Shown: one piece after another, positions 6,529 to 64,000 of the stretch | Layout: each line of letters opens with the position of its first letter | How positions within the stretch are numbered: position 1 is the first letter of the stretch | Source of the DNA: Limisphaerales bacterium | GTDB taxonomy: Bacteria; Verrucomicrobiota; Verrucomicrobiia; Limisphaerales; UBA1096 | DNA length: 64,000 bases | Assembly: GCA_004213515.1 (NCBI GenBank) | Contig: SHAK01000001.1 | Span: 86,359-150,358 of the forward strand | Direction of reading: 5' to 3' | The notes under the pieces: generated by a model | Told to the model about the DNA's origin: nothing | Seen by the model: the letters and a program-made list of their open reading frames with translations, nothing else | Databases searched by the model: none | Made by a program: the position numbers and the translations under genes

Positions 6529-6605
6529 GGCGAGAGTCTACAATTCCCGCCGCGCCAATCAAGCTGTTAGAAAACAACCAACAGTCTAAAATCAGTTAAA
6601 ACAGC

Positions 6606-17436: not shown

Positions 17437-20400
17437 TCACCTACAAGTTTGTAAAAACGCAACGATATCCAATAATTCCTGCTGCGAAAGAATTTGACTA
17501 AAACCTGATGGCATTATTGATAACGACGAATTACTAATACTATGAATCTTATCTCTTGGGACTCTCACATCACGCATATTTGCATTTTTCAAGTAGACAG
17601 TAGTATTGTTTTCTCGCTGTATTATACCCCCTAATGTTTTTTCGTCAGTTGTTCTCAAAGTGTAATACTCATAGCCATTAACTATCGTCAAGTTCGGATA
17701 AAGAATTGCCTCAAGCAAATCTCGCGGTTGTCTGATCTTTGAAATCTTACTTAGGTTAGGGCCTAGCTGACCTCCCTGATCACCAACGCGATGGCAGGCA
17801 CTACAAGAAACTCTCTCTTCGTGAAACAACACTCGCCCACGAGATGCATTACCTAAATTTAGCATTCCTATTAATGAATCAATTTCAACATCTTGTTTCT
17901 TCTTACTTTGAAGACTGCTTCCCATTACGTTCAATAAATTCTTATTTGTAGCACTGCCATCAAGACTAGAGAAAGTTTTCAATATCTTTTGACGTTGACT
18001 GTTACCAATCGTTTTAAGGCCAGGGCTACCTTCAAGCGCTAAAGAAAGTCTATTTCCTAAAAGATTCCAATCCACATTATTTACGACATGATCCTTAGAT
18101 GCCGTGTGCTTACGTCCTCGTGTAAAAGGTTTTATCACTTCAGGTAAATAGTAGGGACTAGCCTCGGATATTATCTTTAATAACTCATCAGATTGTCCAT
18201 CAGTAAGCAGATGAAGATGCAATGAGCCCAAAGATTGTGCAGCTTGACGCCTCAGGATAATTTGAGTTTGTTTCTTTTCAAGAAGATCAACTAGAAAGAA
18301 AAATAAATCACTTGAAAGACGGCCTTGGTGTCTTACTAGCACTTGAATAGCGCTTGCACGCTCCTTTTGTGATTTATCCAAATCTTGACCGATAATTTTT
18401 ATCTTAGATAAAATATTTTCTTTAATATTGAATCTCCGTGCAATATTTAGTGCCTCCATCCGAACATCAGGCTCAAAATGATTTAATCCAATAAGAATAG
18501 CTAATTGAAGCGGATCTGGAAAACGGTCTAGAAAACTTAAAGAAGATAGTACCTGAATCTTTATTTCAGTCTTTATTTCTTTATCATTCAAAATATTCAA
18601 CAAAATATCTTGAAAATCACTATCTTGAGCATAAGCGATTATAATACCTTCAATAAGTTCTTCATCTGACAATTCTTGCTCCTCTTCTTTAACAATATTT
18701 GAGAAAATTTTAATAATTTCTTTTCTCATTTCCCTACGACTAGAAATTAAACGCCGTGCCTCCTCTCGAACATTACTGTCAGCTGATTGCAATAATGGAA
18801 CAACCTGTTTTGAGTCCAATTCACTTCCCAAAGAAGCAAGAACTTTCAGCGCAATTCGTTGACGATACGGATATCTATTGTCGGACAAATATGAAGAAAC
18901 TTCCGCAGAGTTACCAATCTGTGAAATAGCATAAACAAAAGAATGTTTCGTGTGAATAGGATCATTTGAATCCAAGTTTCGAAATAAATATGATAAAGCC
19001 TTCTTATCATCTAATTGCCCTATTGCTGTGGCGGCAGACGCACGAACTGATTGGCTAGTATCAGATAAAAGCTCTGTCAAAGGCGCAAGCGAAGTCTTAT
19101 CCTTCAGACGCCCCAAAGATCTAGCTGCTACCTGACGGACCCCCGAATCCGAATCCTTCAAAGCTTTTTGAAGAATCGTTAGACTGCTTTTACTTTTGAT
19201 TCTTGAAACTGCCCAAAGACAACGCTTTATAAAAATTGAATCAGATGATTCAAGGATTAATTTAGACATTAAATCTAAGATAGCCTCACCTCTGCCTATG
19301 ATAGTCTCAACTGCTTTATCCCTAACTGCTGGCCTTGAGTCATTTATTAAATAAATTAGATCTTTGGCATTTAATGAATTCCATGACAACATCAAACCTC
19401 TAGGGTCATCCCGAACGGAGATATCCTTTCTTTGAATACGATAAATAGACCCTTTAATTTCAGGCATAGCTCTCTTTGAAAACGGGCACCCCCAACTAAG
19501 CCATCCCCCAGTATCTAACAATAAAAGAGACCCATCGGCATCTTCTAGGATATCTGTAGGGTGAAAGCCAATACTATCAGATGTGAGGAAATCTTTTTCT
19601 TTCGTCACAAAGGATCCATTCTTAGACTCCAATCTTATATTTACCACCCGGCGCGTATTGAAATGGCATGCAAATAAAGAGTCTACATAAGCTGCCCCAA
19701 AAGTTTCTCCGCGATATCTCATTAATCCAGCAGGGGCCACTTGCCCCCAGCGACTTGTCGCAGGCAGACGAAATCCTGTTTCAGGCAATAATGGTTGGCC
19801 ATAAACTCGCTGAGTCAATCCCCCAGGAACCCAATGAATTAAGGCGTCATGACGTTGCCCCCCGAAACTGTCAAAAATCGCACATGTCGAAAGCATATCC
19901 CCATTAGAAGTAAAAATTATATCAACAGGATTTACTCCTCCCTGGCCTTCAACTTGAACGTCACTTCCGTCTGGCCAACAGGAAAAAATACCAGCAGCTC
20001 GACTAAAACCAGAACTCGTCCCATCTGTCCCAATTAGGTCATAACCAAAATGACCTCCTGAAAAATACAATCTTCCATTTGGGCCTAAATAAGGACCATG
20101 CTGATTCGCTCGCCCATCAAATTCCATTGACCCTAGAATCTTATCACGTTTATCTGCAACTCCATCTCCGTCTAAATCCTCAAGCCTCCATAAGTATGGA
20201 GCAGCAATAATATAAAGAGCCCCATCATACCAAACCCCTCCTTCGGGCATCGTCATCCGATCTGCAAAAATAGTACTCTTGTCAAAAACACCATCTCCAT
20301 TAACATCAACCAATTGCCTAACAAAACGGGGCAACTCTCTCTCTATAGCAGCTCTTGTAGTGAGATTCCGCCCGTCACTTTCCGCTACATAAAGGCGTCC

Positions 20401-20616
20401 GAGATCATCAAGGCAAGCCAACATAGGATATTTCACAAGCGGATCAGAAGCGACAAGCCGCACTTCAAATCCCTGAGCTATTTTGATCTTAGGATATGAA
20501 ATTTTTTGCTCAGAAAAAATGCGAGCCTCTAAAATGAAAAAAGAGCCAATAAAAATAAATAACTTCAACCCCCATAAAGACGGCCAGCTGATTTTAATTT
20601 GAGAGTTCTTATTCAA
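17437..20616 (-). CDS. PVC-type heme-binding CxxCH protein with an N-terminal membrane-bound-dehydrogenase-like beta-propeller, central HEAT repeats and a C-terminal cytochrome c
   Basis: The 1059-aa protein has an N-terminal signal/TM segment. Its propeller region resembles glucose/sorbosone dehydrogenases, and its central part carries repeated HEAT-like helices (VRQVAARSLG, VRASAATAIG). CSACH lies near the C-terminus. Confidence 0.8.
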   Translation of the reverse strand: MNKNSQIKISWPSLWGLKLFIFIGSFFILEARIFSEQKISYPKIKIAQGFEVRLVASDPLVKYPMLACLDDLGRLYVAESDGRNLTTRAAIERELPRFVRQLVDVNGDGVFDKSTIFADRMTMPEGGVWYDGALYIIAAPYLWRLEDLDGDGVADKRDKILGSMEFDGRANQHGPYLGPNGRLYFSGGHFGYDLIGTDGTSSGFSRAAGIFSCWPDGSDVQVEGQGGVNPVDIIFTSNGDMLSTCAIFDSFGGQRHDALIHWVPGGLTQRVYGQPLLPETGFRLPATSRWGQVAPAGLMRYRGETFGAAYVDSLFACHFNTRRVVNIRLESKNGSFVTKEKDFLTSDSIGFHPTDILEDADGSLLLLDTGGWLSWGCPFSKRAMPEIKGSIYRIQRKDISVRDDPRGLMLSWNSLNAKDLIYLINDSRPAVRDKAVETIIGRGEAILDLMSKLILESSDSIFIKRCLWAVSRIKSKSSLTILQKALKDSDSGVRQVAARSLGRLKDKTSLAPLTELLSDTSQSVRASAATAIGQLDDKKALSYLFRNLDSNDPIHTKHSFVYAISQIGNSAEVSSYLSDNRYPYRQRIALKVLASLGSELDSKQVVPLLQSADSNVREEARRLISSRREMRKEIIKIFSNIVKEEEQELSDEELIEGIIIAYAQDSDFQDILLNILNDKEIKTEIKIQVLSSLSFLDRFPDPLQLAILIGLNHFEPDVRMEALNIARRFNIKENILSKIKIIGQDLDKSQKERASAIQVLVRHQGRLSSDLFFFLVDLLEKKQTQIILRRQAAQSLGSLHLHLLTDGQSDELLKIISEASPYYLPEVIKPFTRGRKHTASKDHVVNNVDWNLLGNRLSLALEGSPGLKTIGNSQRQKILKTFSSLDGSATNKNLLNVMGSSLQSKKKQDVEIDSLIGMLNLGNASRGRVLFHEERVSCSACHRVGDQGGQLGPNLSKISKIRQPRDLLEAILYPNLTIVNGYEYYTLRTTDEKTLGGIIQRENNTTVYLKNANMRDVRVPRDKIHSISNSSLSIMPSGFSQILSQQELLDIVAFLQTCR

Positions 20617-29912: not shown

Positions 29913-30269
29913 TTTACGTTAATTTCATAATGACATACTTATGATATAAATTTCTCACCACAGATTAGGCAAAGAATAGTTGAGCCTGCCGAATCCTTTT
30001 TTTGCCTCTAAATTTCTCCCCGCAGTTTGGGTAAGAGAATTTCAAAGGTTTTTATTGGTTAAGAAAAAACATTCCTCATTTTATAACTAAACTTCAAGCT
30101 CCATTCGTAAAGTTTTTAAAGAGAAATCGAGGCAAGAAGAAGGGGGAGTGCTGGGATATTTTTTAATGTAGATAAAAAATAAAGCTATTAGCCAATGTAG
30201 CATAATTTATAAAGCCTTCCTAATTTACGGCTCAAAGCTTGAAATATTTTAATATGTATATTATTATTT
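29913..30269. promoter_or_regulatory. AT-rich divergent intergenic region, presumed to hold promoters for the NfeD-flotillin-ATPase operon (+) and the DUF1592/DUF1552 operon (-)
   Basis: The 357-bp non-coding gap lies between divergently oriented operons. No specific -35/-10 assignment was attempted. Confidence 0.3.
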
Positions 30270-33041: not shown

Positions 33042-33089
33042 TATTTTTCATTAATTATTCTGAACTAAAATAGCTTTTCACGTAGCATC

Positions 33090-36000
33090 ATGTCAGAAGA
33101 AGATGCAGAGCAAACAGTGTCTACCGAGGTAAAGCCTGCCTTGGAGGGAGGCACCTACGAAATCATCAAGCAACGGTTGCTGAAACAGGCAGGCGAATTA
33201 AAAAAGAAAGTCCAGCAACTTGATGAATTAAGGAAGAGTGTATTCGGGTCGGTTCCGATGGCTCTGAAAAAAGCGGAAAGAATCACGACAGAACACAATT
33301 GTATACCTCGGGATATGATCCGGGCTGTAAGTGATACTTTTATATTTGGTTATAATGTGCAATTCGGCTTAAAGACATCGGTTCAAATCAGTGATGTTTT
33401 TGCTATCTTTGATTATAAAGACGAAGCATTTCACCCCCTAAGCCTAGAACCACTAAAAAGTGGCCAATTCGAGCAGGATTTCGCTAATCTATATAAGTAC
33501 TACAAAGAAACTAAATTTGTTAAGTTTTCACAAATAGGCCCGTTTCTTTTTATGGTTTTTCGTGTTGGCAAAAACGTTACTGACATCAAAACATTCAAAT
33601 GGGCAATTCAGAACGGAGAATTACATTACGTCGATAACCGAAGCGATCATGAGTTTGTATTTCCAGATCAATACCAATTTGAATGGGTCAGAACGCATAG
33701 GGATTTGCATCGTTTTGGAGAACATCCTCACGTCTCAATTGAAGATACTGTATTTGTGGAATGTATCGGGGGTGACCTAACGATTAAAATTGAGGATAAC
33801 ACTGACTCTGGGTCGGGAATTTTGTCTGAAGAGGTCGAGTTTAAGGATCAAACTCTGGACGATGCAGAAATCTTTTTTGCTAAGATTGGCCAAATCATTC
33901 TGTTAAAAATTAGACCATTTCAGGAAAAAGAATTCAGATACTTTGTTTACAATAATAAGTTACGTGAGGTTCATCGGTTTGATGCTCTAAAAGATGCATG
34001 TTGCATACTTCCAGAAGGCCATGGCGTGATTGTTCCCAACGGCTATTATTTGATCAACGGACAAATTAAAATTTACGAAAATGATCTGACAGAGATGATG
34101 TTCGAACGAATGGTCAGTTCTCCTAATGGGGAAGATTACATGTATGTTTTTTATAACAGATTACAGGGTAATTATACCATTTTGCCATATAACATCATCT
34201 CTCAAAATGTAGACAATCCAATTTATTGTAATGGCTTTTCTCTATTTAAAAACGGGGAGTTGACTTACTTCCGAATGGATGATGAACCCCAAAAACATCA
34301 TGTTGCGCAAATCTGGCAAACTCCCTTTACACTAGAGGAGCTTAACAGCGAAACCAACAAGGACCACTTTTTATATCAAATCGGAAATAGGGATGTAGTT
34401 CGCTGTATGGCAGAATGCAGTGAAATATTAAATCTCGCGACTCGAGACTCAACATACGACGAATTGTATATAGACTTGGTCAAACGGTCTCAAGATGTAG
34501 TTGAGTCCTATTTCTGGATTGATAACGATGGACTAAATGGAATCGTAGATTGCATTAATCAAATAAAGGAGACTTCAGGCCAAGCTATAGATGAATTCAA
34601 CAAAGTAAACCGTCTTAAAAAGGAGGCAATCGAAAGGCTCAAAGCTGTAGAAACTAAGACTAAAGAGATTTTTAATGAGATTAGTCGGAGCGAGTTTGCG
34701 CTCATTGACGATTTTGTTTCTAGATTGGCCGAACTAAGAAAGATTCGTGGAGAAATCATATCTCTTCGGGATGTCCCATATGTTGACCTGGAAAGGGTGA
34801 ATACATTTGAGGAAACTGTTTCAAGCAAGACACTGCAGCTTTCTGAATCTTGTGTTGATTTTTTGTTAAAAGAAGAATCCTTGAATCCATATCGAGATCA
34901 CGTGGCTCAACTAAAGGGATCGCTTGGAAATATTACAAAGGTCACAGAGGGAAATGAACTTGTTGAAAATGTAAGCGAAGCCGGTAACGAGTTGGAAATG
35001 CTTATCGACATCGTTAACAACTTGAAAATTGAAGACTCAACGCAAGCGACAAGAATCATCGACCAAATTACGGAGATCTTCACTTCAATTAATCAGTTAA
35101 AAGTTGCTGCCAACAAGAAAATCAAGGAGTTGCATGGTGTTGAAGGTAAAGCACAATTCGCAGCACAAATAAGGCTCATAAGTCAGTCAGTCGTAAGTTT
35201 TTTAGACCTTTGTGACTCCCCTGAAAAATGCGATGAATATTTGAATAAACTCATGGTTCAACTTGAGGAACTCGAAGGTTCCTTTGCTGATTTCGATGAG
35301 TTTATTATAGAGATTGCAGACAAAAGAACCGAAGCATATGAAGCGTTTGAAGCTAGAAAATTAAACCTCATAGAAAGCCGTAATAAAAAAGCGGTATCTT
35401 TGGTTTCATCAGCTGAACGCATATTAAAGGTTATCAGCAACCGTGTTGAAGGATTCGATTCCATTAACGATATCAACGGATATCTGGCTGCTGATTTGAT
35501 GGTCGAAAAGATACGCGGCATCATAGATAATCTAAATTCACTCGGAGATTCTGTAAAAGCGGATGATATTCAAGGGCGACTTAAAACCATACAACAGGAT
35601 GGGATTCGTCAGTTAAAAGATAAAAAAGAGCTGTTTCAGGATGGGGAAAATATTATCAGATTCGGAAAGCATAAGTTTTCGGTTAACACTCAGGATCTAG
35701 ATTTAACTATTCTCAGCCATGACGGTGATATGTGTCTTCATCTAACAGGCACAAAATTCTTTAGTAGCATTAAAAATCCAAAATTTCTGGAAACAAAAGA
35801 TGCTTGGGCACAGGATATCATTTCAGAAAATCGCGATGTCTATAGATCCGAATACTTGGGCTATCAAGTGCTATTATGGCTTGAGCAAAACGGCAGTATT
35901 AGCATCGAAGAATTCCTAAAATTAAATGATGCAGAAAGATTGAAAACGGTTCAGGATTTCATGGCTCCCCTTTACGCTGAATCCTATACCAAGGGTATTC

Positions 36001-38919: not shown

Positions 38920-40260
38920 TTATTTAAAAACCAATGTTCGAATAATCTTACCATTTCTATCCCATTCATAAACTTGCCCGTTTTCCGAACCTCCAAAGAA
39001 CCTCTTACCATCAGTTGTTACATCAAGGCTATAAATAAGGTCTTTAGCTTTAGCCCATGTTTTCACTGGACTCTTACTTGCCTCACTACAAAGCCGTAAA
39101 GCTCCATCATCACTGGCTGTAATTAATTCTGTGTTATTAGCAGGCCAAACAACTGCTGCAACATTACCTGGGTGACCTGTAACAAGATTTTTTTGCTCGC
39201 GAGTTTCAATATCCCAAATTTTTAATTCCTTATCAGCAGCTCCACTGGCTAAAGATTTACCATTAGGCTTAAAAGCAAGACTCATAATAGGAGCAGAATG
39301 AGCCTCAATTTGTTTTAGCTGATTCCCATCAATCAAATTCCAAAAGCGAATAAGTTTATCTTCCCCAGCAGTGGCTAAGTATTCTCCGTCTGGAGACAAA
39401 GTTATATCGTAAATAGTGCCATTATGTGCCGACCATTCTATTACATTATTCAAGTCTTCAGAATTCCATATAGATATTTTACTTTTTTCCCCTGACGCAT
39501 TACTGGCAGAAATCAGTGATCTAGAGTCGGCACTAAAAGCAAGTGCTGTAACTCGCCCTGGCAATTCTTCTATCTCTCCAAATAACAACCAATCTTTAGT
39601 ATCCCACAAGTTCACTTTTCTAAACCCTCCGGTAGCTAATAGTTTCCCATCTGGACTCCAAGCAATCGACTGAACCGCATCTTTATGACCATTAAGTTTT
39701 TTTCTAAGCAATGTCTTTGTAGATAAATTATTAACAACCACCCGGTTGCCGTACGCAGCAGCAAGTTGTTGATCATCAGGGGAAAGCGTCAGTGCAAATA
39801 CTGGTCGATAATCATTTGGAAGATCTCCCAATTCGGAGGAAGCAACTATCCTATTTTCGATATCAAGCTCACTTGTGATCCAAGTTGGACCATCAAGAAT
39901 CCACTGACTTAAGATATTAATCTCATCATCACTCAATTGTTGTTTAGGTGGCATGTGAGGGTCGCTGATTGGTTTGATTAAACGAATAATCCTGCTTTCA
40001 TCAGGACTACCATCAATAAATGCAGAACCTTCTAGCCCCCCAATACGCGCTGTTTGATATGTAGTAAGATCGAGTTTTCCCTTACTTTTTTTTGGATTAT
40101 GGCAATTAACACAATGGTCACGCAAGATATGCATAGCATTTATAGCCAAATCGGAATCTTCCAAATCTTTAGCATTAGTATTTTCCAAATTAAATAATGC
40201 CAGCACAACGGCAATTACCCTTGCAACGGAAAAAAGTAATTGGATTATTAATAATCTCAA
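38920..40260 (-). CDS. Secreted WD40 beta-propeller protein with an N-terminal planctomycete cytochrome-c-like (PSCyt1) CxxCH domain
   Basis: A signal peptide is followed by CVNCHNPKKSKGKLDL. Repeated WD motifs occur (e.g. AWSPDGKLLATGG) and the protein is 446 aa long. Confidence 0.8.
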   Translation of the reverse strand: MRLLIIQLLFSVARVIAVVLALFNLENTNAKDLEDSDLAINAMHILRDHCVNCHNPKKSKGKLDLTTYQTARIGGLEGSAFIDGSPDESRIIRLIKPISDPHMPPKQQLSDDEINILSQWILDGPTWITSELDIENRIVASSELGDLPNDYRPVFALTLSPDDQQLAAAYGNRVVVNNLSTKTLLRKKLNGHKDAVQSIAWSPDGKLLATGGFRKVNLWDTKDWLLFGEIEELPGRVTALAFSADSRSLISASNASGEKSKISIWNSEDLNNVIEWSAHNGTIYDITLSPDGEYLATAGEDKLIRFWNLIDGNQLKQIEAHSAPIMSLAFKPNGKSLASGAADKELKIWDIETREQKNLVTGHPGNVAAVVWPANNTELITASDDGALRLCSEASKSPVKTWAKAKDLIYSLDVTTDGKRFFGGSENGQVYEWDRNGKIIRTLVFK

Positions 40261-40358
40261 AGTGTAAGGGCATTTAACTCGATATAATTAACCTAAGCGA
40301 GTTCAGTATTTTCTATTTCTAGTTGGCCGATTGAAAAAATTAGAGTAATAATAGGTCT

Positions 40359-53756: not shown

Positions 53757-56700
53757 ATGCGGCAATATGGTTTAAACAATCCTTTTTCAAGATTCATTTT
53801 ATTTGCAATCGGAATAACGGGGACTATTTCAATTCATTCTGCTGATTTCGATCAAGACATAGCCCCAATATTTGTTCGAAGTTGTGTCGAGTGCCACAAC
53901 GGTTTTGATCTTAAAGGAAAACTAAACTTGTCTCAGCGCAACTCAGCATTGAAAGGAGGCAAAAGCGGAACACTTATTCTGCCTGGCAAACCAGAAGAGA
54001 GCTTACTGTGGAATAAAATTAAAAATGATGATATGCCTCCAGATAAGCCACTTGATCAAAAAGAAAAAAAACTCGTTCAAGATTGGATTAGTGAAGGTGC
54101 AAATTGGGGAACAAATTTAAAACTGGATCCATTCGAATTCACCACAAAAAAACGTGGTGGTTATGATTGGTGGTCTCTGCAACCGATAAAACGACCTAAT
54201 CAACCAGATATTACAAAGTCAGCCAAATGGGTAGCTAATCCAATCGATGCATTCGTACTAGCCAAACTTAAATCAGCAAAATTAAAACCAAGCAGCCCCG
54301 CTCTGCCTCGAGCATTAATTCGAAGGCTATATTTCGACATTACTGGTCTACCCCCTTCAGCTAAAGAGGTAGCAAAATTTGTTTCTAACCCTACCAATGA
54401 AGCATATAAGAAGATAGTTGACGATCTTCTCAGTTCACCACGTTACGGCGAACGCTGGGGACGCCATTGGTTAGACTTGGCACGCTTCGGTGAGAGTGAC
54501 GGTTTTGAACGTAACAACACAAGAAACAACCTTTGGCCTTACCGAGACTGGGTAATCAAAGCAATAAATGACGATATGCCTTACGACGAATTTGTACGAA
54601 TGCAGATTGCTGGGGATATTCTGAAACCCGGTGATCCAGTGGGACAGAAGTCAGTTGGTTTTCTAGTAGCTGGATTACACAACACTGTTGTAGGTGGAAG
54701 TGAATTCATGAAAAAAACGGCAAGACAGGATGAACTTGAAGAAATCATCGGGACTGTCGGTCAAACTTTTGTCGGATTAACGGTTAATTGTGCCCGCTGC
54801 CATAACCACAAATACGATCCCATTCTACAAAAAGAATACTATCAATTAACATCAGCAATCGCTGGTGTATTCCATGGAGAACGCAATGTCTCAGACCCGG
54901 AACTTGAGCGCCAACGCAAGTCTTTACTGACACAAATAGAATCTTTCAGTAAAGAACTTAAATTAATTGAAAATCAGGGACGTCAGACAGTTATAAACAA
55001 ACGAAGTCATGGTAAAGAAACTACTATGCCTAAGCCCCCAAAGCCAATTTCTAGATGGGAGTTTGATAACAACCTTAAAGATAGTATTGGCAATTTGCAT
55101 GGAAAGGCAAAAGGAAGCGCTCGTATTTCAGGTGGCGCCCTTTTAGTTGATGGAAATGAGTCGTGGATTGAAACAAATTCTATTGAGTCATCGTTTCGAT
55201 CCAAAACACTTGAAGCATGGGTTGAGTTAAGCAATTTGAATCAAAAAGGTGGAGGTGTGATTGGGTTACAAAGCCTCAATGGCGCTACATTTGATTCCAT
55301 TGTATTTGCTGAACTTGAAGCGCACCGATGGATGTCAGGTAGTGACGGCCACAGCCGAACTAAATCATTTAGGGCTAAAGAAGAAAATTTCGCGCATCAG
55401 CAGCCGGTGCACATTGCAATTGTTTATCAAGAGGATGGCACCGTTATCGGCTATCGTAATGGAGTCCAATACGGAAAACCTTATAAGACCAATTTACAGG
55501 AATTCTTCAAGGGAAGTTCACAAGTAATTTTTGGTATGCGGCACAAAGGCGGAAGGAATAACTATTTAAAAGGAAAGATTCATCGCGCACAACTTTACGA
55601 CCGAGCACTTGCCCCAAACGAAATCGCTGCCTCAGCAGGAGTTGAATCATCATTCGTAAGCGAATTAGAGTTAGCCGCTGCACTTTCAAAAACAAAAAAG
55701 ACTAAACGTATGGCCCTTAAAGATCAGTTAACTGGACTCCTCGCTCGTCAAAAAGAATTAGGAAAGGGTTCAAAAATGAAGATTTATACAGTTGCCGCTC
55801 GAAGCAACCCCGGCAAAGTGCGCATATTAAAACGAGGAAACGCAATGGATGAAGGCGAAATAGTTCGCCCAGGAGCTGTTTCTGCACTTAGGACATTTAG
55901 TAGTGACTTTGGAATCAAGGCAAACGCTTCTGATAGCGATCGGCGGAAACAGTTGGCTAACTGGATAACGCATCCAAAAAACCCATTATTTAATAGGGTA
56001 ATAGCCAACCGTATTTGGCATTATCACTTTGGAACAGGCTTAGTTGAAACACCCAACGATTTTGGCTTTAACGGAGGTCGCCCGAGCCATCCAGAGTTGC
56101 TGGATTGGCTAGCTTCGGAATTAAAAACCAATGGCCAAAGACTCAAGGGGCTTCATCGATTAATTGTAACTTCAAATACATATCGACAAGCAGCAGCCCC
56201 TCGAGAAGAAGGACTTGCAGTCGATTCAGAAAACCGTCTTTTATGGCGCAAATCACCAGTCAGACTAGATGCTGAATCACTGCGAGATGCAGTTCTTAAA
56301 GTTTCTGGAAAACTTAACTTCAAGATGGGAGGCCCTGGCTTTCGCGATGTTTCAGTTATACCAAACAATGGCACCACTTACTACGAACCAATTTATCCAA
56401 TTGGAAGCGAATACGACCGTCGCACCGTTTACCGATTTAGCCCAAGAGGAGGACGAAGCGCAATTCTTGACACCTTTGACTGCCCTGATCCTTCCACAAC
56501 TGCCCCAAGACGCGCTGTGACTACTACCCCATTGCAAGCACTGGCACTTTTAAATAATAAATTCATTTTAAATAAAGCAGATGCCATGGCAAATCGCTTG
56601 AAGGCACAATCAAACGGAAATAGGGACAAGCAAATTGAACAGGCTTTTCTCAGCGCCTTTCAACGAAATCCAGATTCTGAAGAAATGCTTTTAGCAAAAC

Positions 56701-56777
56701 GATTAATCGAAGACTACGGACTTACCACTCTATGTCGTTCTCTTTTTAACAGTAACGAATTTATAATTATTAATTAA
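53757..56777 (+). CDS. PSCyt1 cytochrome-c-like plus DUF1549 / LamG insert / DUF1553 protein
   Basis: A signal peptide is followed by CVECHNGFDLKGKLNL, then DWWSLQP (DUF1549), a LamG-like block (ARISGGALLVDGNESW...KIHRAQLYDRAL) and a DUF1553 C-terminus (NRIWHYHFG, DCPDPS, TTPLQALALLN). Length is 1006 aa. Confidence 0.85.
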   Translation: MRQYGLNNPFSRFILFAIGITGTISIHSADFDQDIAPIFVRSCVECHNGFDLKGKLNLSQRNSALKGGKSGTLILPGKPEESLLWNKIKNDDMPPDKPLDQKEKKLVQDWISEGANWGTNLKLDPFEFTTKKRGGYDWWSLQPIKRPNQPDITKSAKWVANPIDAFVLAKLKSAKLKPSSPALPRALIRRLYFDITGLPPSAKEVAKFVSNPTNEAYKKIVDDLLSSPRYGERWGRHWLDLARFGESDGFERNNTRNNLWPYRDWVIKAINDDMPYDEFVRMQIAGDILKPGDPVGQKSVGFLVAGLHNTVVGGSEFMKKTARQDELEEIIGTVGQTFVGLTVNCARCHNHKYDPILQKEYYQLTSAIAGVFHGERNVSDPELERQRKSLLTQIESFSKELKLIENQGRQTVINKRSHGKETTMPKPPKPISRWEFDNNLKDSIGNLHGKAKGSARISGGALLVDGNESWIETNSIESSFRSKTLEAWVELSNLNQKGGGVIGLQSLNGATFDSIVFAELEAHRWMSGSDGHSRTKSFRAKEENFAHQQPVHIAIVYQEDGTVIGYRNGVQYGKPYKTNLQEFFKGSSQVIFGMRHKGGRNNYLKGKIHRAQLYDRALAPNEIAASAGVESSFVSELELAAALSKTKKTKRMALKDQLTGLLARQKELGKGSKMKIYTVAARSNPGKVRILKRGNAMDEGEIVRPGAVSALRTFSSDFGIKANASDSDRRKQLANWITHPKNPLFNRVIANRIWHYHFGTGLVETPNDFGFNGGRPSHPELLDWLASELKTNGQRLKGLHRLIVTSNTYRQAAAPREEGLAVDSENRLLWRKSPVRLDAESLRDAVLKVSGKLNFKMGGPGFRDVSVIPNNGTTYYEPIYPIGSEYDRRTVYRFSPRGGRSAILDTFDCPDPSTTAPRRAVTTTPLQALALLNNKFILNKADAMANRLKAQSNGNRDKQIEQAFLSAFQRNPDSEEMLLAKRLIEDYGLTTLCRSLFNSNEFIIIN

Positions 56778-60481: not shown

Positions 60482-60601
60482 CTAAATAGCGCATTTATAA
60501 AAATAGTTAAAAAATTCCAGTAAATATATAAGTACAAATAAATATATATAAGCTACTGAAAAGAATTTTTGTTCTTTCAGCTTAAAGAAGCAAAGTATGA
60601 T

Positions 60602-63600
60602 TCACTTCGTTTTAATATTTCTTGCGACAACTTTCATCATGCCTCGCATCAACGTTGCATGTCCCGGAAAGGTACAAACATATGGGTAATTTCCTGGTTC
60701 AGGTGCAATAAAATTGATCACAGTTTCCTCTTTATGATTAATAGCTTTAGAGCCCCAAAGAATAAGCGGGGTGTCCGGTTGCCATTGTTTACTGATACCT
60801 TTTTCACCAAGTTCAAGAGCCATTTTGGCTACTTCATCAGCTTTGCCAGGCTTAACTATAAGTAAATTATGAGGAGGGAAATCCATATTTCTGAATTTCA
60901 ATGATACAGAATCTCCAGTTTTAACCTCAAACTCCTTAGTATCATAAAGCATTTTTCCCTCTATAGTACTTATAGTGATTTGAAACTTTTCACCCTCAAT
61001 AACCGGAATGGAGCTACCACCTCCATAGATATCAACGAATCTTGGCCCAGCAATTCGTCGCATTTTCTGGACTATATAAGCAGGAAGATCATTCCGAGGA
61101 ACCACGCCAGATTTGATTGCGTCAGTAAATTTTTGTGCATAAGAAGACTGCGATGATAATGTCTTTATTGTAGCAGACTTTTCTTCAACATTCATTTTAG
61201 AATACCTACTAAGTAATTCTCTCGAAAATGATTTTTCGTCATATGATGCCATGGCAACTATTGAATCGTTACTTAAATTACTATCATTTAATAGATTCAC
61301 TAAACGGTCTTTAAGAGCGTGATGTTCTTTGGATGCTAAAGTTTTAAGTGCAGATCTACGATCTACTGAAGTAGCTTTGGAATTGTCCAATGTTGAAATC
61401 AAAGCTTTGTTGGTTTCACTATCTCCAAGAATCAGTGCTATCTCTTTTGCAAGTGGATATTTCTCAATTTTTTTGTATGTTTCTTGCCAGCTCGCGGGCG
61501 CCACAGCTTCATCCAAACTCTTTAATCCAGCATCAAAACCTCGGAGCATGTTGTTGATTGTTGTTTCATCTTTAATTTGACCAAGAGCAAGAGATAGTGT
61601 CTCAAGCTGGCGTGCATTTGTTGCTCGGCGTGCAATATATTCGGTTACCAATGGTAATTGGCTGGCCTGCGCCAAATTCATGGCGCGCGTTGGGTTTTCC
61701 GGGACGAGCGGCTCAACACCATACCAAATCATCTTGGGCAAATTATGGTCATCAGCATCCTCAGCGTGGGTGACCAAACCAGCAGCGATTGCCCATCGAT
61801 TGCCCATCGATATGCGTTGCATAGCGGAGGCTAGATAGAGGCGCACCACCGGCGAAGAATCCTTATTTGCCATGCTTGCGAATTTTTTTAAAGCACGGTT
61901 AGACGGGTTCTTATCCTCACAGAGAAATTGAATTGACCATGCACGGATATGCTCGTCTTCGTCGTTTAGGTTTTTTAAGTTCTCAGACTCGTTCAAGCCG
62001 CCAGTAATGTGCAATCCCCAAAGCGCACGCAGGCGATAATCGGCGTTTTTATTTTTGCGGAACATCTGCTTTAGCGAGCGGTGCGTACCCTTATCTAATT
62101 TACCTTTTATTGACCTCCCATGCAGAACAACGCGCGCTCGACGAGCATGCCACGAACTTACGTTAGTCTGGTAACTAACTAATTTTGCATCGCTAAGTTT
62201 TTCAACATCTTCGTAACGGCCCTCCCAGTCGTTGGCTAAGCTTTTGTTGGGTGCCAGACGGAAAATACGACCAGTATCCTTATGTTGAATGTTATTTCCA
62301 CATATGAATGCATCATGCCAGTCAAGAACGTATACGTTACCTGCAGGACCAATTTCCATACTAAAGCCAATCCATTGTTCATTGTTTGCATGCATGAAAT
62401 CCTTGTGTTCCTTGCCAACGTAACCAGAGCCAGCAGGAACCAATTCATCAGTCAAGACTGCATGCTCGTGGATATTAGCCATGAAAAGTTTACCCTGATA
62501 CTCATCTGGAAAAGCATCCGATAGATAAACACGGGCTCCACCGTGTGCTGATCGGTGACGGTGTTCCGCGATCGTACGGATATCACTGTAGGCGTGCGGA
62601 TTAAAATGACGGCCAGCCTGGCGGTGATACAAGCCGCCGGGGATGACATGCCACAAGTGAGGGATCACGCATGCTGTAATGAAAAGTTGCCCCTTGGCGT
62701 CGTAGTCGATACCCCAAGGATTGCTAAAACCGTGCGCAACAATTTCAAACACTTCCTTAGTTGGGTGATAGCGCCAGACACCACCGTTAATCTTCTGACC
62801 CTCCCCTTCGAACTCGACCGACTTGGGATATGGCTCACCATGCTTGAAAAGCTTCCCTGTTCCCTTTGGCTTACCTACGACAGAAGGCGTGAACACGCCT
62901 TGGCAGCCGTATATCCAGCCGTCCGGCCCCCAGTGCAGACTGTTGAGCACCTCGTGCCGGTCGCGAATGCCCCACCCTGTCAGCCGCACCTCGATGTCAT
63001 CAACATCAGCTTTGTCGTCTTTGTTGCGATCTGGAACGAATAACAGATTCGGCGGCGCACCCAACCAAAGTCCGTCAAGGCCCACTGCCATCGCAGACGG
63101 AAACGGAACGCCCTCAAGAAATACTGAACGCTTATCAGCCACTCCATCGCGGTCAGTGTCTTCCAAGATTAAAATGCGGCTATCGCCCGAAGCGGAAAAT
63201 CCACGGCCGCGCGTTTCATAGTCTCGATTCTCGGCAACCCACATGCGGCCCTTGTCGTCCCAGCAAAATGCCATTGGCTGAGTGATCATTGGCTCATTGG
63301 CCCAAGAGTTAACAGTGAAGCCTCCTTCAATAGTCGAGTTGTCGACCGCCTCCTGCGGGGTGAGAAACTTAGCATCTCGACCAGCACGCTTTGCAAGTTG
63401 CCAAAGTGCATATGTGCCTCGCTGACCAGTGTAAGCTTTCCAGCGATCAGTCAACTCCTTGCCGTTAAGTTTGCCACCGTAAACCTGAATCTGATGACGA
63501 ATGGTCTCAGTCTTTCCTTTGGCAATATTCCAGTCACCGAGTCGCGCTCGCACCGGGCCTACACCTAGCTGGCCATCTACCCTCCAAGGCTGAGGATAAC

Positions 63601-64000
63601 CTGCGTTTTTATGATGATCAAAAATAGCGATATGCCCCCAGTCATCTCGACCGTCAATCTCCATACCGACGTCAAGCCACATAGCGCGCTTCCCCTCAGC
63701 CCTACGGTCGGTGTCACGTGCGGCGTTAACAGCCTCGCCCTTGATACCCTTCTTCCAAGGCATACGCACGAAAAGTCCCCCGTAGGGGTATTTGCCAATA
63801 TTGACATTGGTTTGGCCGGTCCCCATCCACTCAAGGTCGAGAACGTGCCGATCTTTGCTTGAAGTCATCGACCACCGCTGGGTCTCTGTGAGCACTGCAT
63901 TGCCATTAGCATCTAGTAGATCGTAGACGGTCTCCCATTTTACCGAATCTCCTTTGGCTTCGATCACTTTAACATCCTTGCGTTTCCAGTAATCGCCTCT
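60602..64000 (-). CDS. Giant DUF6807/PmoA-like plus membrane-bound-dehydrogenase beta-propeller plus HEAT-repeat protein with a C-terminal type-1 copper cupredoxin (azurin/plastocyanin-like) domain, partial: the N-terminus lies beyond the window end
   Basis: The frame is open to position 64000, and the ORF-track 'M' at 63967 is a GTG. The C-terminus HNLLIVKPG...YPYVCTFPGHATLMRGMM carries His...Cys-x-x-Pro-Gly-His-x-x-x-Met, a classical blue-copper ligand set. The central part has HEAT-like repeats. The N-terminal part resembles the propeller of the 17437-20616 paralog. Confidence 0.85.
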   Translation of the reverse strand, partial: RGDYWKRKDVKVIEAKGDSVKWETVYDLLDANGNAVLTETQRWSMTSSKDRHVLDLEWMGTGQTNVNIGKYPYGGLFVRMPWKKGIKGEAVNAARDTDRRAEGKRAMWLDVGMEIDGRDDWGHIAIFDHHKNAGYPQPWRVDGQLGVGPVRARLGDWNIAKGKTETIRHQIQVYGGKLNGKELTDRWKAYTGQRGTYALWQLAKRAGRDAKFLTPQEAVDNSTIEGGFTVNSWANEPMITQPMAFCWDDKGRMWVAENRDYETRGRGFSASGDSRILILEDTDRDGVADKRSVFLEGVPFPSAMAVGLDGLWLGAPPNLLFVPDRNKDDKADVDDIEVRLTGWGIRDRHEVLNSLHWGPDGWIYGCQGVFTPSVVGKPKGTGKLFKHGEPYPKSVEFEGEGQKINGGVWRYHPTKEVFEIVAHGFSNPWGIDYDAKGQLFITACVIPHLWHVIPGGLYHRQAGRHFNPHAYSDIRTIAEHRHRSAHGGARVYLSDAFPDEYQGKLFMANIHEHAVLTDELVPAGSGYVGKEHKDFMHANNEQWIGFSMEIGPAGNVYVLDWHDAFICGNNIQHKDTGRIFRLAPNKSLANDWEGRYEDVEKLSDAKLVSYQTNVSSWHARRARVVLHGRSIKGKLDKGTHRSLKQMFRKNKNADYRLRALWGLHITGGLNESENLKNLNDEDEHIRAWSIQFLCEDKNPSNRALKKFASMANKDSSPVVRLYLASAMQRISMGNRWAIAAGLVTHAEDADDHNLPKMIWYGVEPLVPENPTRAMNLAQASQLPLVTEYIARRATNARQLETLSLALGQIKDETTINNMLRGFDAGLKSLDEAVAPASWQETYKKIEKYPLAKEIALILGDSETNKALISTLDNSKATSVDRRSALKTLASKEHHALKDRLVNLLNDSNLSNDSIVAMASYDEKSFSRELLSRYSKMNVEEKSATIKTLSSQSSYAQKFTDAIKSGVVPRNDLPAYIVQKMRRIAGPRFVDIYGGGSSIPVIEGEKFQITISTIEGKMLYDTKEFEVKTGDSVSLKFRNMDFPPHNLLIVKPGKADEVAKMALELGEKGISKQWQPDTPLILWGSKAINHKEETVINFIAPEPGNYPYVCTFPGHATLMRGMMKVVARNIKTK

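What the first reader, a model, noticed from the sequence alone, without database searches (positions are those of the whole stretch)
60602..61000. Type-1 copper cupredoxin replaces the usual cytochrome c at the C-terminus of a PVC-type dehydrogenase/HEAT giant protein
The paralogous architecture at 17437-20616 ends in a c-type heme site (CSACH). This protein instead ends in HNLLIVKPG...YPYVCTFPGHATLMRGMM, a textbook His/Cys/His/Met blue-copper site. This looks like a swap of the electron-transfer module from heme to copper on an otherwise conserved scaffold of propeller plus HEAT. It suggests these enigmatic 'PVC-type heme-binding' proteins are modular periplasmic redox enzymes whose electron-acceptor domain is interchangeable.
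Basis: partly seen in the sequence, partly recalled or inferred. Interest (0 to 1): 0.6.

Follow-up and report, generated by a model that had tools for sequence, protein, structure and literature searches.

The report
Copper domain replaces heme domain
A large exported sugar-dehydrogenase-like protein of a marine Verrucomicrobium ends in an azurin-like blue-copper domain where its closest relatives, at the same chromosomal position, end in a cytochrome c; this is a clean natural heme-to-copper module swap, but copper endings are already common on this class of protein.

Summary
Window 60605-61000 (minus strand) encodes a confident azurin/auracyanin-type cupredoxin. Pfam Copper-bind scores 36 bits against a cut-off of 21, the AlphaFold model has pLDDT 93.5, and auracyanin is the best PDB match. 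The His/Cys/His/Met ligands are invariant in 17 relatives.

The gene runs off the window end. It equals a 1236-aa protein: DUF6807, DUF7133 propeller, HEAT-like helices, cupredoxin.

Proteins 72-84% identical over the first 1097 residues, in the same gene neighbourhood, end in cytochrome c instead. DNA similarity to one such ortholog breaks at the domain junction and resumes 52 nt after the stop codon.

The architecture is not new. Cupredoxins of this subfamily sit after a DUF7133 propeller in most of 80 species-level genomes examined, across several phyla. Some proteins carry both copper and heme domains.

Three things are specific here. Copper is rare in this orthogroup (3 of the best 120 protein clusters). 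About 210 residues upstream of the new domain are unusually divergent and AT-rich at synonymous sites. Copper and heme alleles both occur in two separate genome backgrounds, which implies lateral allele replacement.

Function is inferred, not tested. Moderate interest.

The parts
60602..64000 (-). Target gene. The 3' end is complete (stop TGA at 60602-60604). The 5' end is cut by the window edge, so about 104 codons are missing, including the signal peptide.
   Evidence: The frame is open from 64000 to 60605. It is 100% identical over 100% of the query to P0001, a 1236-aa protein named 'dehydrogenase [Opitutia bacterium TMED67]'. The same gene is seen on at least 6 independent contigs, and a cluster member on 57 contigs.
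60605..61021 (-). Replaced module: a short linker (GGGSSIPVIEGEK) plus an azurin/auracyanin-like cupredoxin domain (P0001 residues 1098-1236).
   Evidence: PF00127 scores 36.2 bits. The AF2 model has pLDDT 93.5, and Foldseek finds auracyanin and azurins. Sequence shared with cyt-c orthologs ends at ...RRIAGPRFVDIYG. Nucleotide homology to SGL-cupredoxin genes spans 60629-60996 only.
60647..60871 (-). Span holding the four type-1 copper ligand codons: His 60869-60871, Cys 60674-60676, His 60659-60661, Met 60647-60649.
   Evidence: Read directly from the sequence. H47, C112, H117 and M121 (domain numbering) are invariant in 17 sequences, as are N48, T113, P115 and G116. The loop aligns with CTFPGH...M of auracyanin B and CTVPGHYPLM of auracyanin A.
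60551..60601 (-). 3' untranslated stretch that belongs to the replaced cassette and has no counterpart in the cyt-c ortholog locus.
   Evidence: In blastn of the window against L002, similarity stops at window 61031 and resumes at 60550, before ligA. So 480 nt here stand in for 548 nt there. No terminator passed the scan on this strand.
61022..61650 (-). 'HEAT-C': about 210 helical residues just upstream of the junction. They are homologous to the cyt-c orthologs but unusually divergent and AT-rich at synonymous sites.
   Evidence: The GC3 change-point falls at codon 884 (P0001) and 890 (P0003), with GC3 going from 0.52-0.64 to 0.27-0.29. The cyt-c orthologs show no such step. Cu-versus-cyt identity falls from about 78% to about 45% here, while cyt-versus-cyt stays 62-83%. 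The Cu types form a 100%-bootstrap clade in this stretch only.
61651..62200 (-). First part of the alpha-helical HEAT-like region. It has normal similarity to the cyt-c orthologs.
   Evidence: Pfam HEAT_2 matches ORF residues 632-715 at 25.4 bits, just below the cut-off of 27.7. The AF2 model shows helices from residue about 600.
62252..63358 (-). DUF7133 / TIGR02604 six-bladed beta-propeller, the presumed catalytic domain.
63440..64000 (-). DUF6807 domain (formerly misnamed 'PmoA'). Its N-terminal third lies outside the window.
   Evidence: PF14100 scores 100.1 bits and matches the profile from position 94. The domain is all-beta in the model. Foldseek hits to the GH36 alpha-galactosidase N-domain and the YidC periplasmic beta-supersandwich probably correspond to this part; that assignment comes from aligned lengths, not from residue ranges.
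17437..20616 (-).
   Evidence: TIGR02604 scores 153.5 bits, TIGR02603 105 bits and Cytochrom_C 27.5 bits. It is about 25% identical to the target's first 700 residues.

Best explanation
The gene encodes an exported, multi-domain oxidoreductase-like protein. Its domains are a carbohydrate-binding-like beta-sandwich (DUF6807), a six-bladed propeller of the soluble PQQ sugar-dehydrogenase fold (DUF7133), a HEAT-like helical arm, and a tethered one-electron carrier.

In almost all members of this orthogroup the carrier is a mono-heme cytochrome c. In one clade of marine Verrucomicrobiota (Limisphaerales-like, including this window) it was replaced in place by an azurin/auracyanin-type blue-copper domain. 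The closest relatives of that copper domain (62-71% identity) are the C-terminal domains of roughly 429-aa gluconolactonase-like (SGL) propeller proteins of marine Verrucomicrobia, which are the likely source.

Most likely mechanism (inferred). The propeller oxidises a sugar-like substrate in the periplasm. Electrons pass one at a time to the type-1 copper, as they would to the heme in the orthologs, and from there to the respiratory chain.

Evolution. The copper allele arose once, with the same junction and one clade. The helical arm next to it then diverged fast. The allele later spread by homologous replacement, because copper and heme alleles are both found in two distinct genome backgrounds.

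Shown: the fold, the ligands, the junction, the synteny, the mosaic composition and the distribution. Inferred: copper binding, the redox role, the substrate, the direction of electron flow, the donor gene and the selective reason.

Orthologous replacement:
- Only P0001-P0003 of the best 120 hits carry PF00127.
- P0004-P0008 are 72-84% identical over the body and have unrelated cyt-c tails, 16-18% identical.
- The DNA breakpoints lie at window 61031 and 60550.

Synteny:
- The order Zn-ribbon / BNR-like / PPIase / target / LigA / DUF1501 / PSCyt / MutS is shared with the cyt-c contig L002.

Single origin and spread:
- The Cu types form a 100%-bootstrap clade in HEAT-C.
- Flanking proteins group P1(Cu) with P5 and P6 (cyt), at PPIase 69-77% and BNR-like 78-82%.
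- They group P3(Cu) with P8(cyt), at 66% and 78%, and these two share the downstream 278aa-Rieske-CotH genes.
- Identity between the two groups is 56-69%.

Likely source of the domain:
- SGL-cupredoxin proteins are the nearest non-orthologous relatives.
- Their homology starts exactly at the cupredoxin.

Redox scaffold:
- The same cupredoxin subfamily follows DUF7133 in 26 of 26 large representative proteins and in about 60 of 80 GTDB loci.
- It is sometimes in tandem with cytochrome c.

Export:
- P0001 starts MKILNFKKLLSQVLVFALVQSGVAHS, which reads as a signal peptide by eye.
Against: - No experiment shows copper binding, redox activity or a substrate.
- The one characterised TIGR02604+HEAT+cyt-c protein, Lac161_ORF7, was reported to hydrolyse lactose (PMC5342196). 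Others treat the family as putative beta-propeller glycoside hydrolases (PMC7397252).
- PQQ-binding or catalytic residues were not examined.
- SMP-30 lactonases score nearly as well as dehydrogenases.
- No model of the full protein was made, so the distance from the copper site to the propeller pocket is unknown.
- The donor inference rests on 62-71% identity, not on a near-identical source.
- The AT-rich, fast-evolving HEAT-C stretch is not explained by a simple domain swap.
- The lateral-spread inference uses only two flanking proteins from five contigs.
Confidence: 0.75

Rival explanations
1. Iron-sparing adaptation. The heme-to-copper replacement was selected because surface-ocean iron is scarce. 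This would parallel the replacement of cytochrome c6 by plastocyanin in cyanobacteria and oceanic diatoms. It is an added selective reading on top of the best explanation rather than a strict alternative.
For: All Cu-type sequences whose sample is named come from marine metagenomes. These include Tara Oceans projects, a TARA_152_SRF surface sample and the Mediterranean MAG TMED67. The nearest cupredoxin relatives are also marine Verrucomicrobia. The precedent is described in PMC8557733 and PMC3491386.
Against: The closest cyt-c orthologs are marine too: cluster 7 has 499 members, one labelled 'marine metagenome'. The same window keeps a cyt-c-ending paralog and several PSCyt CxxCH proteins, so the cell still makes c-type cytochromes. 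One heme per enzyme is a small iron saving. No environmental correlation was computed.
Confidence: 0.3
2. The propeller is a glycoside hydrolase, or another non-redox enzyme such as a lactonase. In that case the terminal cupredoxin or cytochrome domain does not collect electrons from catalysis. It might serve in sensing, anchoring or partner docking.
For: Purified Lac161_ORF7 (TIGR02604 + HEAT_2 + Cytochrom_C) hydrolysed lactose with a Km of 1.8 mM (PMC5342196). TIGR02604 is listed as a putative GH family (PMC7397252). The top Foldseek matches are SMP-30/gluconolactonase-type hydrolases. The closest cupredoxins are fused to SGL lactonase-like propellers.
Confidence: 0.15
3. The copper ending is an assembly or binning chimera, or a decaying remnant, rather than a functional gene part.
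For: The source is metagenome-derived. The 3' part differs in composition from the 5' part.
Against: The identical 1236-aa protein lies on at least 6 independently assembled contigs with the same neighbours, and a cluster member lies on 57 contigs. Three diverged lineages, 75-80% identical in the tail, keep an intact frame, the same junction and all four ligands. The composition step falls about 210 codons upstream of the junction, inside homologous sequence, and not at the junction itself.
Confidence: 0.02
4. The whole 3' kilobase (HEAT-C plus cupredoxin) was imported in one piece from an unsampled, low-GC homologous gene that already carried the copper domain. On this view it did not arise by domain capture followed by local acceleration.
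For: There is a sharp GC3 step at codon ~884-890 in all three Cu lineages, whatever the host GC. Tree incongruence between body and HEAT-C supports this too.
Against: In HEAT-C the rank order of relatives is the same as in the body: P4 > P5 > P6 > P8 > P7 > the rest. The region is simply more divergent from all of them, which fits acceleration on the branch. No database protein other than the orthologs spans HEAT-C plus cupredoxin. In the window genome it is the tail, not the body, that matches the host GC3.
Confidence: 0.25

Closest known systems
Auracyanins (Chloroflexus and Roseiflexus; PDB 2aan, 1qhq/1ov8, 6kol) and azurins
   Same: Same fold and the same type-1 site: His-Asn ... Cys-Thr-x-Pro-Gly-His-x3-Met. 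These are the best sequence and structure matches.
   Different: Only 20-32% identical. The NCBIfam azurin and plastocyanin equivalog models score far below their cut-offs, 23.5 against 105 and 21.5 against 88. Here the domain is the C-terminal part of a 1236-aa protein, not a free or lipid-anchored carrier.
DUF7133 (TIGR02604, 'PVC-type') propeller proteins with a C-terminal cupredoxin, widespread but unstudied
   Same: Same cupredoxin subfamily, motifs PHNL(L/V)(I/V)VKP and CTFPGHxx(L/M)M, placed after a DUF7133 propeller and usually HEAT repeats.
   Different: Those proteins have other N-terminal modules (GDSL lipase, ThuA, F5/8-type C, PA14), and none of the 26 scanned has DUF6807. Their cupredoxins are 40-55% identical to this one. 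The target belongs to an orthogroup that otherwise ends in cytochrome c.
DUF6807-DUF7133-HEAT-cytochrome c orthologs ('PVC-type heme-binding CxxCH protein', 'PmoA family protein')
   Same: 57-84% identical over residues 1-1097. In the closest relatives the gene sits at the same locus.
   Different: The C-terminal 139 residues are a cupredoxin instead of a ~166-residue cytochrome c. The preceding ~210 residues are unusually divergent.
SGL (SMP-30/gluconolactonase-like) + cupredoxin proteins of ~429 aa from marine Verrucomicrobia
   Same: They carry the closest cupredoxin domains, 62-71% aa and 66-70% nt identical, including the short EKxFxITIST lead-in. They are also signal-peptide proteins with a six-bladed propeller.
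   Different: The propeller family differs. They have no DUF6807 and no HEAT arm, and they are a third of the size.
Redox-partner-tethered copper nitrite reductases (cytochrome c-fused RpNiR type; cupredoxin-fused types)
   Same: One catalytic core is found in nature fused either to a cytochrome c or to a cupredoxin as a built-in electron partner (PMC9358711, PMC7201279, PMC13324648).
   Different: The enzyme is unrelated and the electrons flow towards the catalytic site. The variants are not positional alleles in sister lineages.
PQQ-dependent soluble sugar dehydrogenases, including fungal AA12 pyranose dehydrogenase
   Different: Sequence identity is 9-19%. PQQ and calcium ligands were not checked. 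There was no PDB hit by sequence outside the cupredoxin.
Plastocyanin / cytochrome c6 alternation
   Same: A type-1 copper protein and a c-type cytochrome do the same electron-carrier job and replace each other in evolution (PMC8557733, PMC3491386).
   Different: Those are free carriers in photosynthesis, chosen by regulation or gene loss. They are not a fused domain exchanged by recombination.

Membership tests
Cupredoxin, type-1 (blue) copper, azurin/auracyanin class (Pfam PF00127) | Sequence match above the curated family threshold | tested here: met
   PF00127 scores 36.2 bits against a cut-off of 21.2. PDB auracyanins match at 2e-14 and 1.5e-13.
Cupredoxin, type-1 (blue) copper, azurin/auracyanin class (Pfam PF00127) | Greek-key beta-sandwich fold | tested here: met
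   The AF2 model has pLDDT 93.5 and is mainly beta-strands with one helical insert. Foldseek gives TM 0.82/0.89 to 6kol, and azurins follow.
Cupredoxin, type-1 (blue) copper, azurin/auracyanin class (Pfam PF00127) | His ... Cys-x(n)-His-x(m)-Met ligand set, conserved in relatives | tested here: met
   H47, C112, H117 and M121 are invariant in 17 sequences. The spacing C-x4-H-x3-M matches the aligned auracyanins.
Cupredoxin, type-1 (blue) copper, azurin/auracyanin class (Pfam PF00127) | Binds copper, with ~600 nm absorbance and a small A-parallel EPR signal | not testable with these tools
   Needs the expressed protein.
Azurin proper (NCBIfam TIGR02695) or plastocyanin proper (TIGR02656) | Score above the equivalog cut-off | tested here: not met
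   Azurin scores 23.5 against 105.1, plastocyanin 21.5 against 87.85 and amicyanin 15.5 against 110.2. It works like them but is not a member of these narrow families.
PVC-type DUF7133 / TIGR02604 propeller proteins | N-terminal-domain model above the cut-off | tested here: met
   TIGR02604 scores 315.4 bits against 122.2. PF23500 scores 212.7 against 27.
'PVC-type heme-binding CxxCH protein' (the name NCBI attaches to TIGR02604 hits) | A CxxCH heme-binding motif or the TIGR02603 domain | tested here: not met
   There is no CxxCH in the 1132 residues in the window. The 104 N-terminal residues of P0001 outside the window hold no cysteine. There is no TIGR02603 or Cytochrom_C hit. Even so, a 1236-aa member of the same 90%-identity cluster (P0288) is named this way in NCBI.
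PQQ-dependent soluble glucose/sugar dehydrogenase (sGDH-like, AA12) | Six-bladed propeller fold most similar to sGDH-type enzymes | tested here: met
PQQ-dependent soluble glucose/sugar dehydrogenase (sGDH-like, AA12) | Conserved PQQ- and Ca-binding and catalytic residues; sequence-level membership | not tested
   There is no Pfam GSDH hit and no PDB sequence hit outside the cupredoxin. The residues were not mapped.
Glycoside hydrolase (proposed for TIGR02604 from Lac161_ORF7) | Hydrolytic activity, or similarity to a known GH catalytic domain | tested here: inconclusive
   No GH catalytic family is hit in Pfam. Foldseek hits to GH36 probably concern only its N-terminal beta-sandwich, judged from the aligned lengths. 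Activity cannot be tested here. The literature claim is in PMC5342196.

The most novel reading that the evidence does not exclude
The heme-ending and copper-ending forms are alternative alleles of one locus. They move between related marine Verrucomicrobiota by homologous recombination, as a cassette of about 1 kb (helical arm plus carrier domain). This would let lineages retune a periplasmic sugar-oxidising enzyme to local iron and copper supply. It would be a bacterial, domain-level counterpart of the plastocyanin / cytochrome c6 choice, maintained as a polymorphism across species.
Probability: 0.2. Interest if true: 0.6.

Novelty: new member of a known kind. Interest (0 to 1): 0.35.

Why it matters
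The DUF7133/TIGR02604 proteins are among the most expanded and least understood families in Planctomycetota, Verrucomicrobiota and many Bacteroidota. The literature search found only three papers that mention any of the family's identifiers (TIGR02604, DUF6807).

Two unrelated one-electron carriers replace each other at one position. They do so even between positional orthologs that are about 80-84% identical elsewhere. This is strong comparative evidence that these proteins are redox enzymes with a built-in electron outlet, and it weighs against a purely hydrolytic reading.

It also gives an experimental handle. A blue-copper reporter is far easier to follow optically than a heme buried in a 140-kDa protein. 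The natural heme/copper pair with a near-identical catalytic body is a ready-made system for studying tethered electron transfer.

On the practical side, it exposes a naming error. Copper-ending, heme-free members are being labelled 'heme-binding CxxCH protein'.

If the allele distribution followed metal availability, it would add a heterotroph example to marine iron-sparing strategies.

Tried and rejected
- **Distant paralog as comparator.** I dropped the gene at 17437-20616 as the comparator. It is about 25% identical and lacks DUF6807. I used positional orthologs instead.
- **Donor carrying HEAT-C plus cupredoxin.** I searched with window 60605-61660. Only ortholog fragments cover both parts, and every other hit covers the cupredoxin alone. 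Local BLAST against 150 representative hits gave the same result.
- **Recent recombination.** I tested this through four-fold synonymous sites. They are near saturation everywhere (28-55% identity), so the test is not informative.
- **GC composition as a simple 'foreign DNA' flag.** The answer is ambiguous. The tail matches the host in the window genome but not in L003. The body matches the host in L003 but not in the window.
- **Home-made cytochrome-c HMM.** It was contaminated by the three Cu tails and gave spurious overlaps on L012-L014. Only cyt-c hits that do not overlap the cupredoxin were counted.
- **Sequence search of the whole protein against PDB.** Nothing was found outside the cupredoxin.
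- **Terminator after the gene.** None passed the scan on the gene's strand.
- **Full-length structure prediction.** I did not attempt it. P0001 exceeds the size limit. The cyt-c tails of the homologs would misalign under the cupredoxin. The tool also returns no coordinates or PAE from which a copper-to-pocket distance could be read.
- **Literature.** Four searches found no paper on cupredoxin-ending DUF7133 proteins.
Full report
**1. What is at the coordinates**

On the minus strand a long reading frame ends at TGA 60602-60604. It stays open all the way to base 64000, so the gene is cut by the window edge. The 1132 codons present are 100% identical to P0001. That is a 1236-aa protein deposited as 'dehydrogenase' from the marine MAG Opitutia bacterium TMED67 and from Verrucomicrobiales. 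Its missing N-terminus begins MKILNFKKLLSQVLVFALVQSGVAHS, which reads as a signal peptide by eye.

Pfam and NCBIfam give this order of domains:
- DUF6807: 100 bits, truncated by the window.
- DUF7133 / TIGR02604: 213 and 315 bits.
- HEAT_2: 25.4 bits, just under the cut-off.
- Copper-bind PF00127: 36.2 bits against a gathering score of 21.2.

The quoted peptide is present exactly as written. The ligand codons are His 60869-60871, Cys 60674-60676, His 60659-60661 and Met 60647-60649.

**2. Is it really a blue-copper domain?**

Yes, as far as sequence and fold can tell.
- The last 147 residues hit auracyanins by sequence: 6kol 2.2e-14, 2aan 1.5e-13, 1ov8 9.6e-8. Azurins follow.
- An AlphaFold2 model built on 17 sequences has mean pLDDT 93.5 and pTM 0.85 and is mainly beta-strands with one helical insert.
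- Foldseek against the PDB returns auracyanin 6kol (E 8.5e-14, TM 0.82/0.89, rmsd 2.1 A), auracyanin A, and then dozens of azurins.
- In an alignment of 17 relatives down to 42% identity, several positions are invariant. These are the four ligands, the Asn after the first His, and the Thr, Pro and Gly of the C-T-F-P-G-H loop.
- The loop spacing C-x4-H-x3-M is that of the aligned auracyanins.

It is not an azurin or plastocyanin in the narrow sense. The equivalog models score far below their cut-offs. Copper binding itself cannot be tested here.

**3. Is it a swap?**

A search with the whole protein found 3488 relatives. Among the best 120 clusters only three (P0001-P0003, at least 83% identical) carry Copper-bind. 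The next ones, P0004-P0008, are 72-84% identical over the body and carry Cytochrom_C.

The sequences run together up to ...RRIAGPRFVD(I/V)(Y/W)G, which is P0001 residue 1097. After that point the three have the cupredoxin. The others have a roughly 166-residue CSACH/CFACH cytochrome c, and tail identity is 16-18%, which is noise.

At the DNA level, similarity between the window and the contig of the cyt-c ortholog P0005 (L002) runs at 73% up to window 61031 and then stops. It resumes at 60550, which is 52 nt past the stop codon and ahead of ligA. So 480 nt here replace 548 nt there.

The neighbourhood is the same on both sides in the window-type contigs and in L002. The order is Zn-ribbon protein, a 700-aa BNR-like protein, PPIase-FKBP, the target, LigA, DUF1501, PSCyt1/2-PSD1, MutS. 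These are therefore positional orthologs that differ in their terminal domain.

However, it is only about 25% identical and lacks DUF6807. The conclusion was right, but the comparator was weak.

**4. How unusual is the architecture?**

Not very.
- A profile of the domain, searched against 1.84 billion representative proteins, found 4810 clusters, 690 of them at E <= 1e-30.
- Of the best 150, 26 are 850 aa or longer. Most of them carry the domain at the extreme C-terminus; in a few, more sequence follows it.
- All 26 contain DUF7133. Nineteen have HEAT_2, 17 a GDSL lipase domain, 9 ThuA, and 4 also a cytochrome c.
- Among the best 80 loci, about 60 have DUF7133 upstream in the same reading frame. 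Seven have a cupredoxin followed by a cytochrome c.
- The phyla include Verrucomicrobiota, Planctomycetota, Bacteroidota, Acidobacteriota, Hydrogenedentota and Balneolaceae.

The general idea that the carrier domain on these scaffolds is interchangeable is therefore correct. It is also already implicit in the databases.

Within the DUF6807-containing orthogroup, however, copper is rare. It appears in three of the 120 best clusters and one of the 80 GTDB loci (L012, Verrucomicrobiales MED711).

**5. Where did the domain come from?**

The nearest non-orthologous relatives, at 62-71% aa identity, are the C-terminal domains of roughly 429-aa proteins. These have a signal peptide and an SMP-30/gluconolactonase-like propeller. 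They are abundant in marine metagenomes and in marine Verrucomicrobia MAGs such as TMED102, CPC23 and SP274.

Nucleotide homology to them (66-70%) covers window 60629-60996 only, which is the cupredoxin with its short lead-in. Cupredoxins attached to other DUF7133 proteins are more distant, at 40-55%. A gene of the SGL-cupredoxin type is therefore the most likely donor. This is an inference.

**6. A mosaic that goes beyond the domain**

The roughly 210 residues upstream of the junction, here called HEAT-C, behave oddly.
- Identity between Cu-type and cyt-c-type orthologs falls from about 78% to about 45% near residue 900. Identity among the cyt-c types stays at 62-83% there.
- In that stretch the Cu types form a 100%-bootstrap clade on a long branch. 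In the first 880 columns they do not group with support.
- GC at third codon positions drops at codon 884 in P0001 (0.52 to 0.27) and at codon 890 in P0003 (0.64 to 0.29; likelihood-ratio statistic 124).
- In P0002 the single best change-point is at codon 559, but GC3 again falls to about 0.28 beyond codon 885.
- The cyt-c orthologs show no comparable step.
- The window genome has GC3 of about 0.33, so there the body is the odd part. In L003 (GC3 about 0.56) the tail is the odd part.
- The rank order of relatives in HEAT-C is the same as in the body, only lower throughout. This favours acceleration on the Cu branch over import from outside the clade.
- No database protein other than the orthologs spans HEAT-C plus cupredoxin.

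I could not resolve why a homologous stretch next to the new domain is both fast-evolving and AT-rich in three genomes of different composition.

**7. Copper and heme alleles cut across genome backgrounds**

Flanking proteins define two backgrounds.

| Background | Members | PPIase identity | BNR-like identity | Downstream genes |
|---|---|---|---|---|
| A | P1 (Cu, this window), P5 (cyt c), P6 (cyt c) | 69-77% | 78-82% | LigA |
| B | P3 (Cu), P8 (cyt c) | 66% | 78% | 278-aa protein (82% identical), Rieske, CotH, BD-FAE |

- Between the two backgrounds the flanks are 56-69% identical.
- The Cu-type MED711 locus (L012) also has a LigA homolog downstream, 72-76% identical to the background A LigA proteins.
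- The body of the P3 gene is 87-89% identical to background A genes, but only 80% to P8, its genomic sister.

The Cu tails share one junction and form one clade. The simplest reading is a single origin followed by at least one lateral replacement of the allele by homologous recombination. This rests on two flanking proteins from five contigs and needs genome-scale trees.

**8. What the scaffold is**

No part of the body has a solved relative by sequence. An AlphaFold2 model of the first 700 window residues has pLDDT 85 and pTM 0.80.
- Foldseek ranks the lactonases first. It also gives hits to the N-terminal beta-sandwich of GH36 alpha-galactosidases and to the YidC periplasmic domain. I attribute those hits to DUF6807 from their aligned lengths, not from residue ranges.

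The body thus looks like a sugar-binding module plus an sGDH-like propeller.

The only experimental datum I found for the family concerns Lac161_ORF7, a TIGR02604 + HEAT + cytochrome c protein. It hydrolysed lactose in vitro (PMC5342196). On that basis others list TIGR02604 as a putative glycoside hydrolase family (PMC7397252).

**9. Most likely mechanism**

I consider it most likely (about 0.75) that the propeller oxidises a sugar-like substrate in the periplasm. The tethered carrier, heme c in most lineages and type-1 copper here, would take the electrons one at a time and pass them to the respiratory chain.

The argument is comparative. Two unrelated one-electron carriers occupy the same position on the same scaffold, sometimes in tandem, in hundreds of genomes. 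The scaffold also has a dehydrogenase-like fold.

Known analogues:
- Copper nitrite reductases are fused to either a cytochrome c or a cupredoxin (PMC9358711, PMC7201279, PMC13324648).
- Plastocyanin and cytochrome c6 alternate as carriers (PMC8557733, PMC3491386).

An iron-sparing motive is attractive because all Cu-type sequences with a named source are marine. It is untested. It is also weakened by two facts: the closest cyt-c orthologs are marine too, and this genome keeps other c-type cytochrome proteins.

**10. Verdict**

- Novelty is modest. This is a new member (DUF6807-type orthogroup) of a widespread but unstudied kind (propeller/HEAT proteins with a C-terminal cupredoxin).
- Its added value is a very clean natural heme/copper pair, an unexplained mosaic next to the junction, and hints of lateral allele exchange.
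- Interest is about 0.35.

Noticed in passing
P0288 (cluster of P0001; NCBI MFL2910437.1), same protein family as window 60602-64000: NCBI names a 1236-aa member of the target's 90%-identity cluster 'PVC-type heme-binding CxxCH protein'. The target itself has no CxxCH motif and no heme domain. The name appears to be triggered by the N-terminal TIGR02604 model alone.
   Followed up: partly
window 61022-61650 (P0001 codons ~885-1097); also L003 and L006: A homologous helical stretch just upstream of the new domain is fast-evolving and has GC3 of 0.27-0.30 in three genomes whose own GC3 ranges from about 0.33 to about 0.56. The cause is unresolved.
   Followed up: partly
L018, L026, L055, L079, L083, L084, L090; P0151: Some DUF7133 proteins carry the cupredoxin and a cytochrome c in tandem at the C-terminus. 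Examples come from Gemmata, Phycisphaeraceae, Hydrogenedentota and Acidobacteriota. This suggests a two-step built-in electron wire.
   Followed up: no
L006 422-3511: On the contig of the Cu-type ortholog P0002, a 530-aa Copper-bind + PA14 protein lies directly next to a 493-aa DUF7133 protein. This looks like a split version of the fused architecture.
   Followed up: no
L013, L014, L016, L092; P0393-P0470: There is a large, uncharacterised family of ~429-aa exported gluconolactonase-like propellers with a C-terminal blue-copper domain. It is very abundant in marine metagenomes, with clusters of 200-320 members.
   Followed up: partly
window 63967-64000: the ORF listing reports the target as a 1121-aa ORF starting at GTG 63967. 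The frame is in fact open to the window end, and the true start lies about 104 codons outside the window.
   Followed up: yes
window 33069-38672 (+): This is an 1868-aa protein with DUF3686 ('ATPase involved in DNA repair', 587 bits), DUF7902 and a dynein-type AAA_5 domain. Its function is unknown.
   Followed up: no
window 38923-40287 (-), 4099-6537 (-), 27285-29918 (-), 53757-56777 (+): There are four further 'Planctomycete cytochrome'-type proteins. One is PSCyt1 fused to a WD40 propeller. The others are PSCyt2-PSD1, PSD/PSCyt3 with Laminin_G_3, and PSCyt1/2-PSD1 next to DUF1501. The genome therefore invests heavily in CxxCH proteins despite the copper swap.
   Followed up: no
window 60556-60582 (-): An AT-rich imperfect hairpin (CTGAAAGAA-CAAAAA-TTCTTTTCAG) lies inside the cassette-specific 3' untranslated stretch. 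I saw it by eye. It did not meet the terminator scan's G+C criteria.
   Followed up: partly
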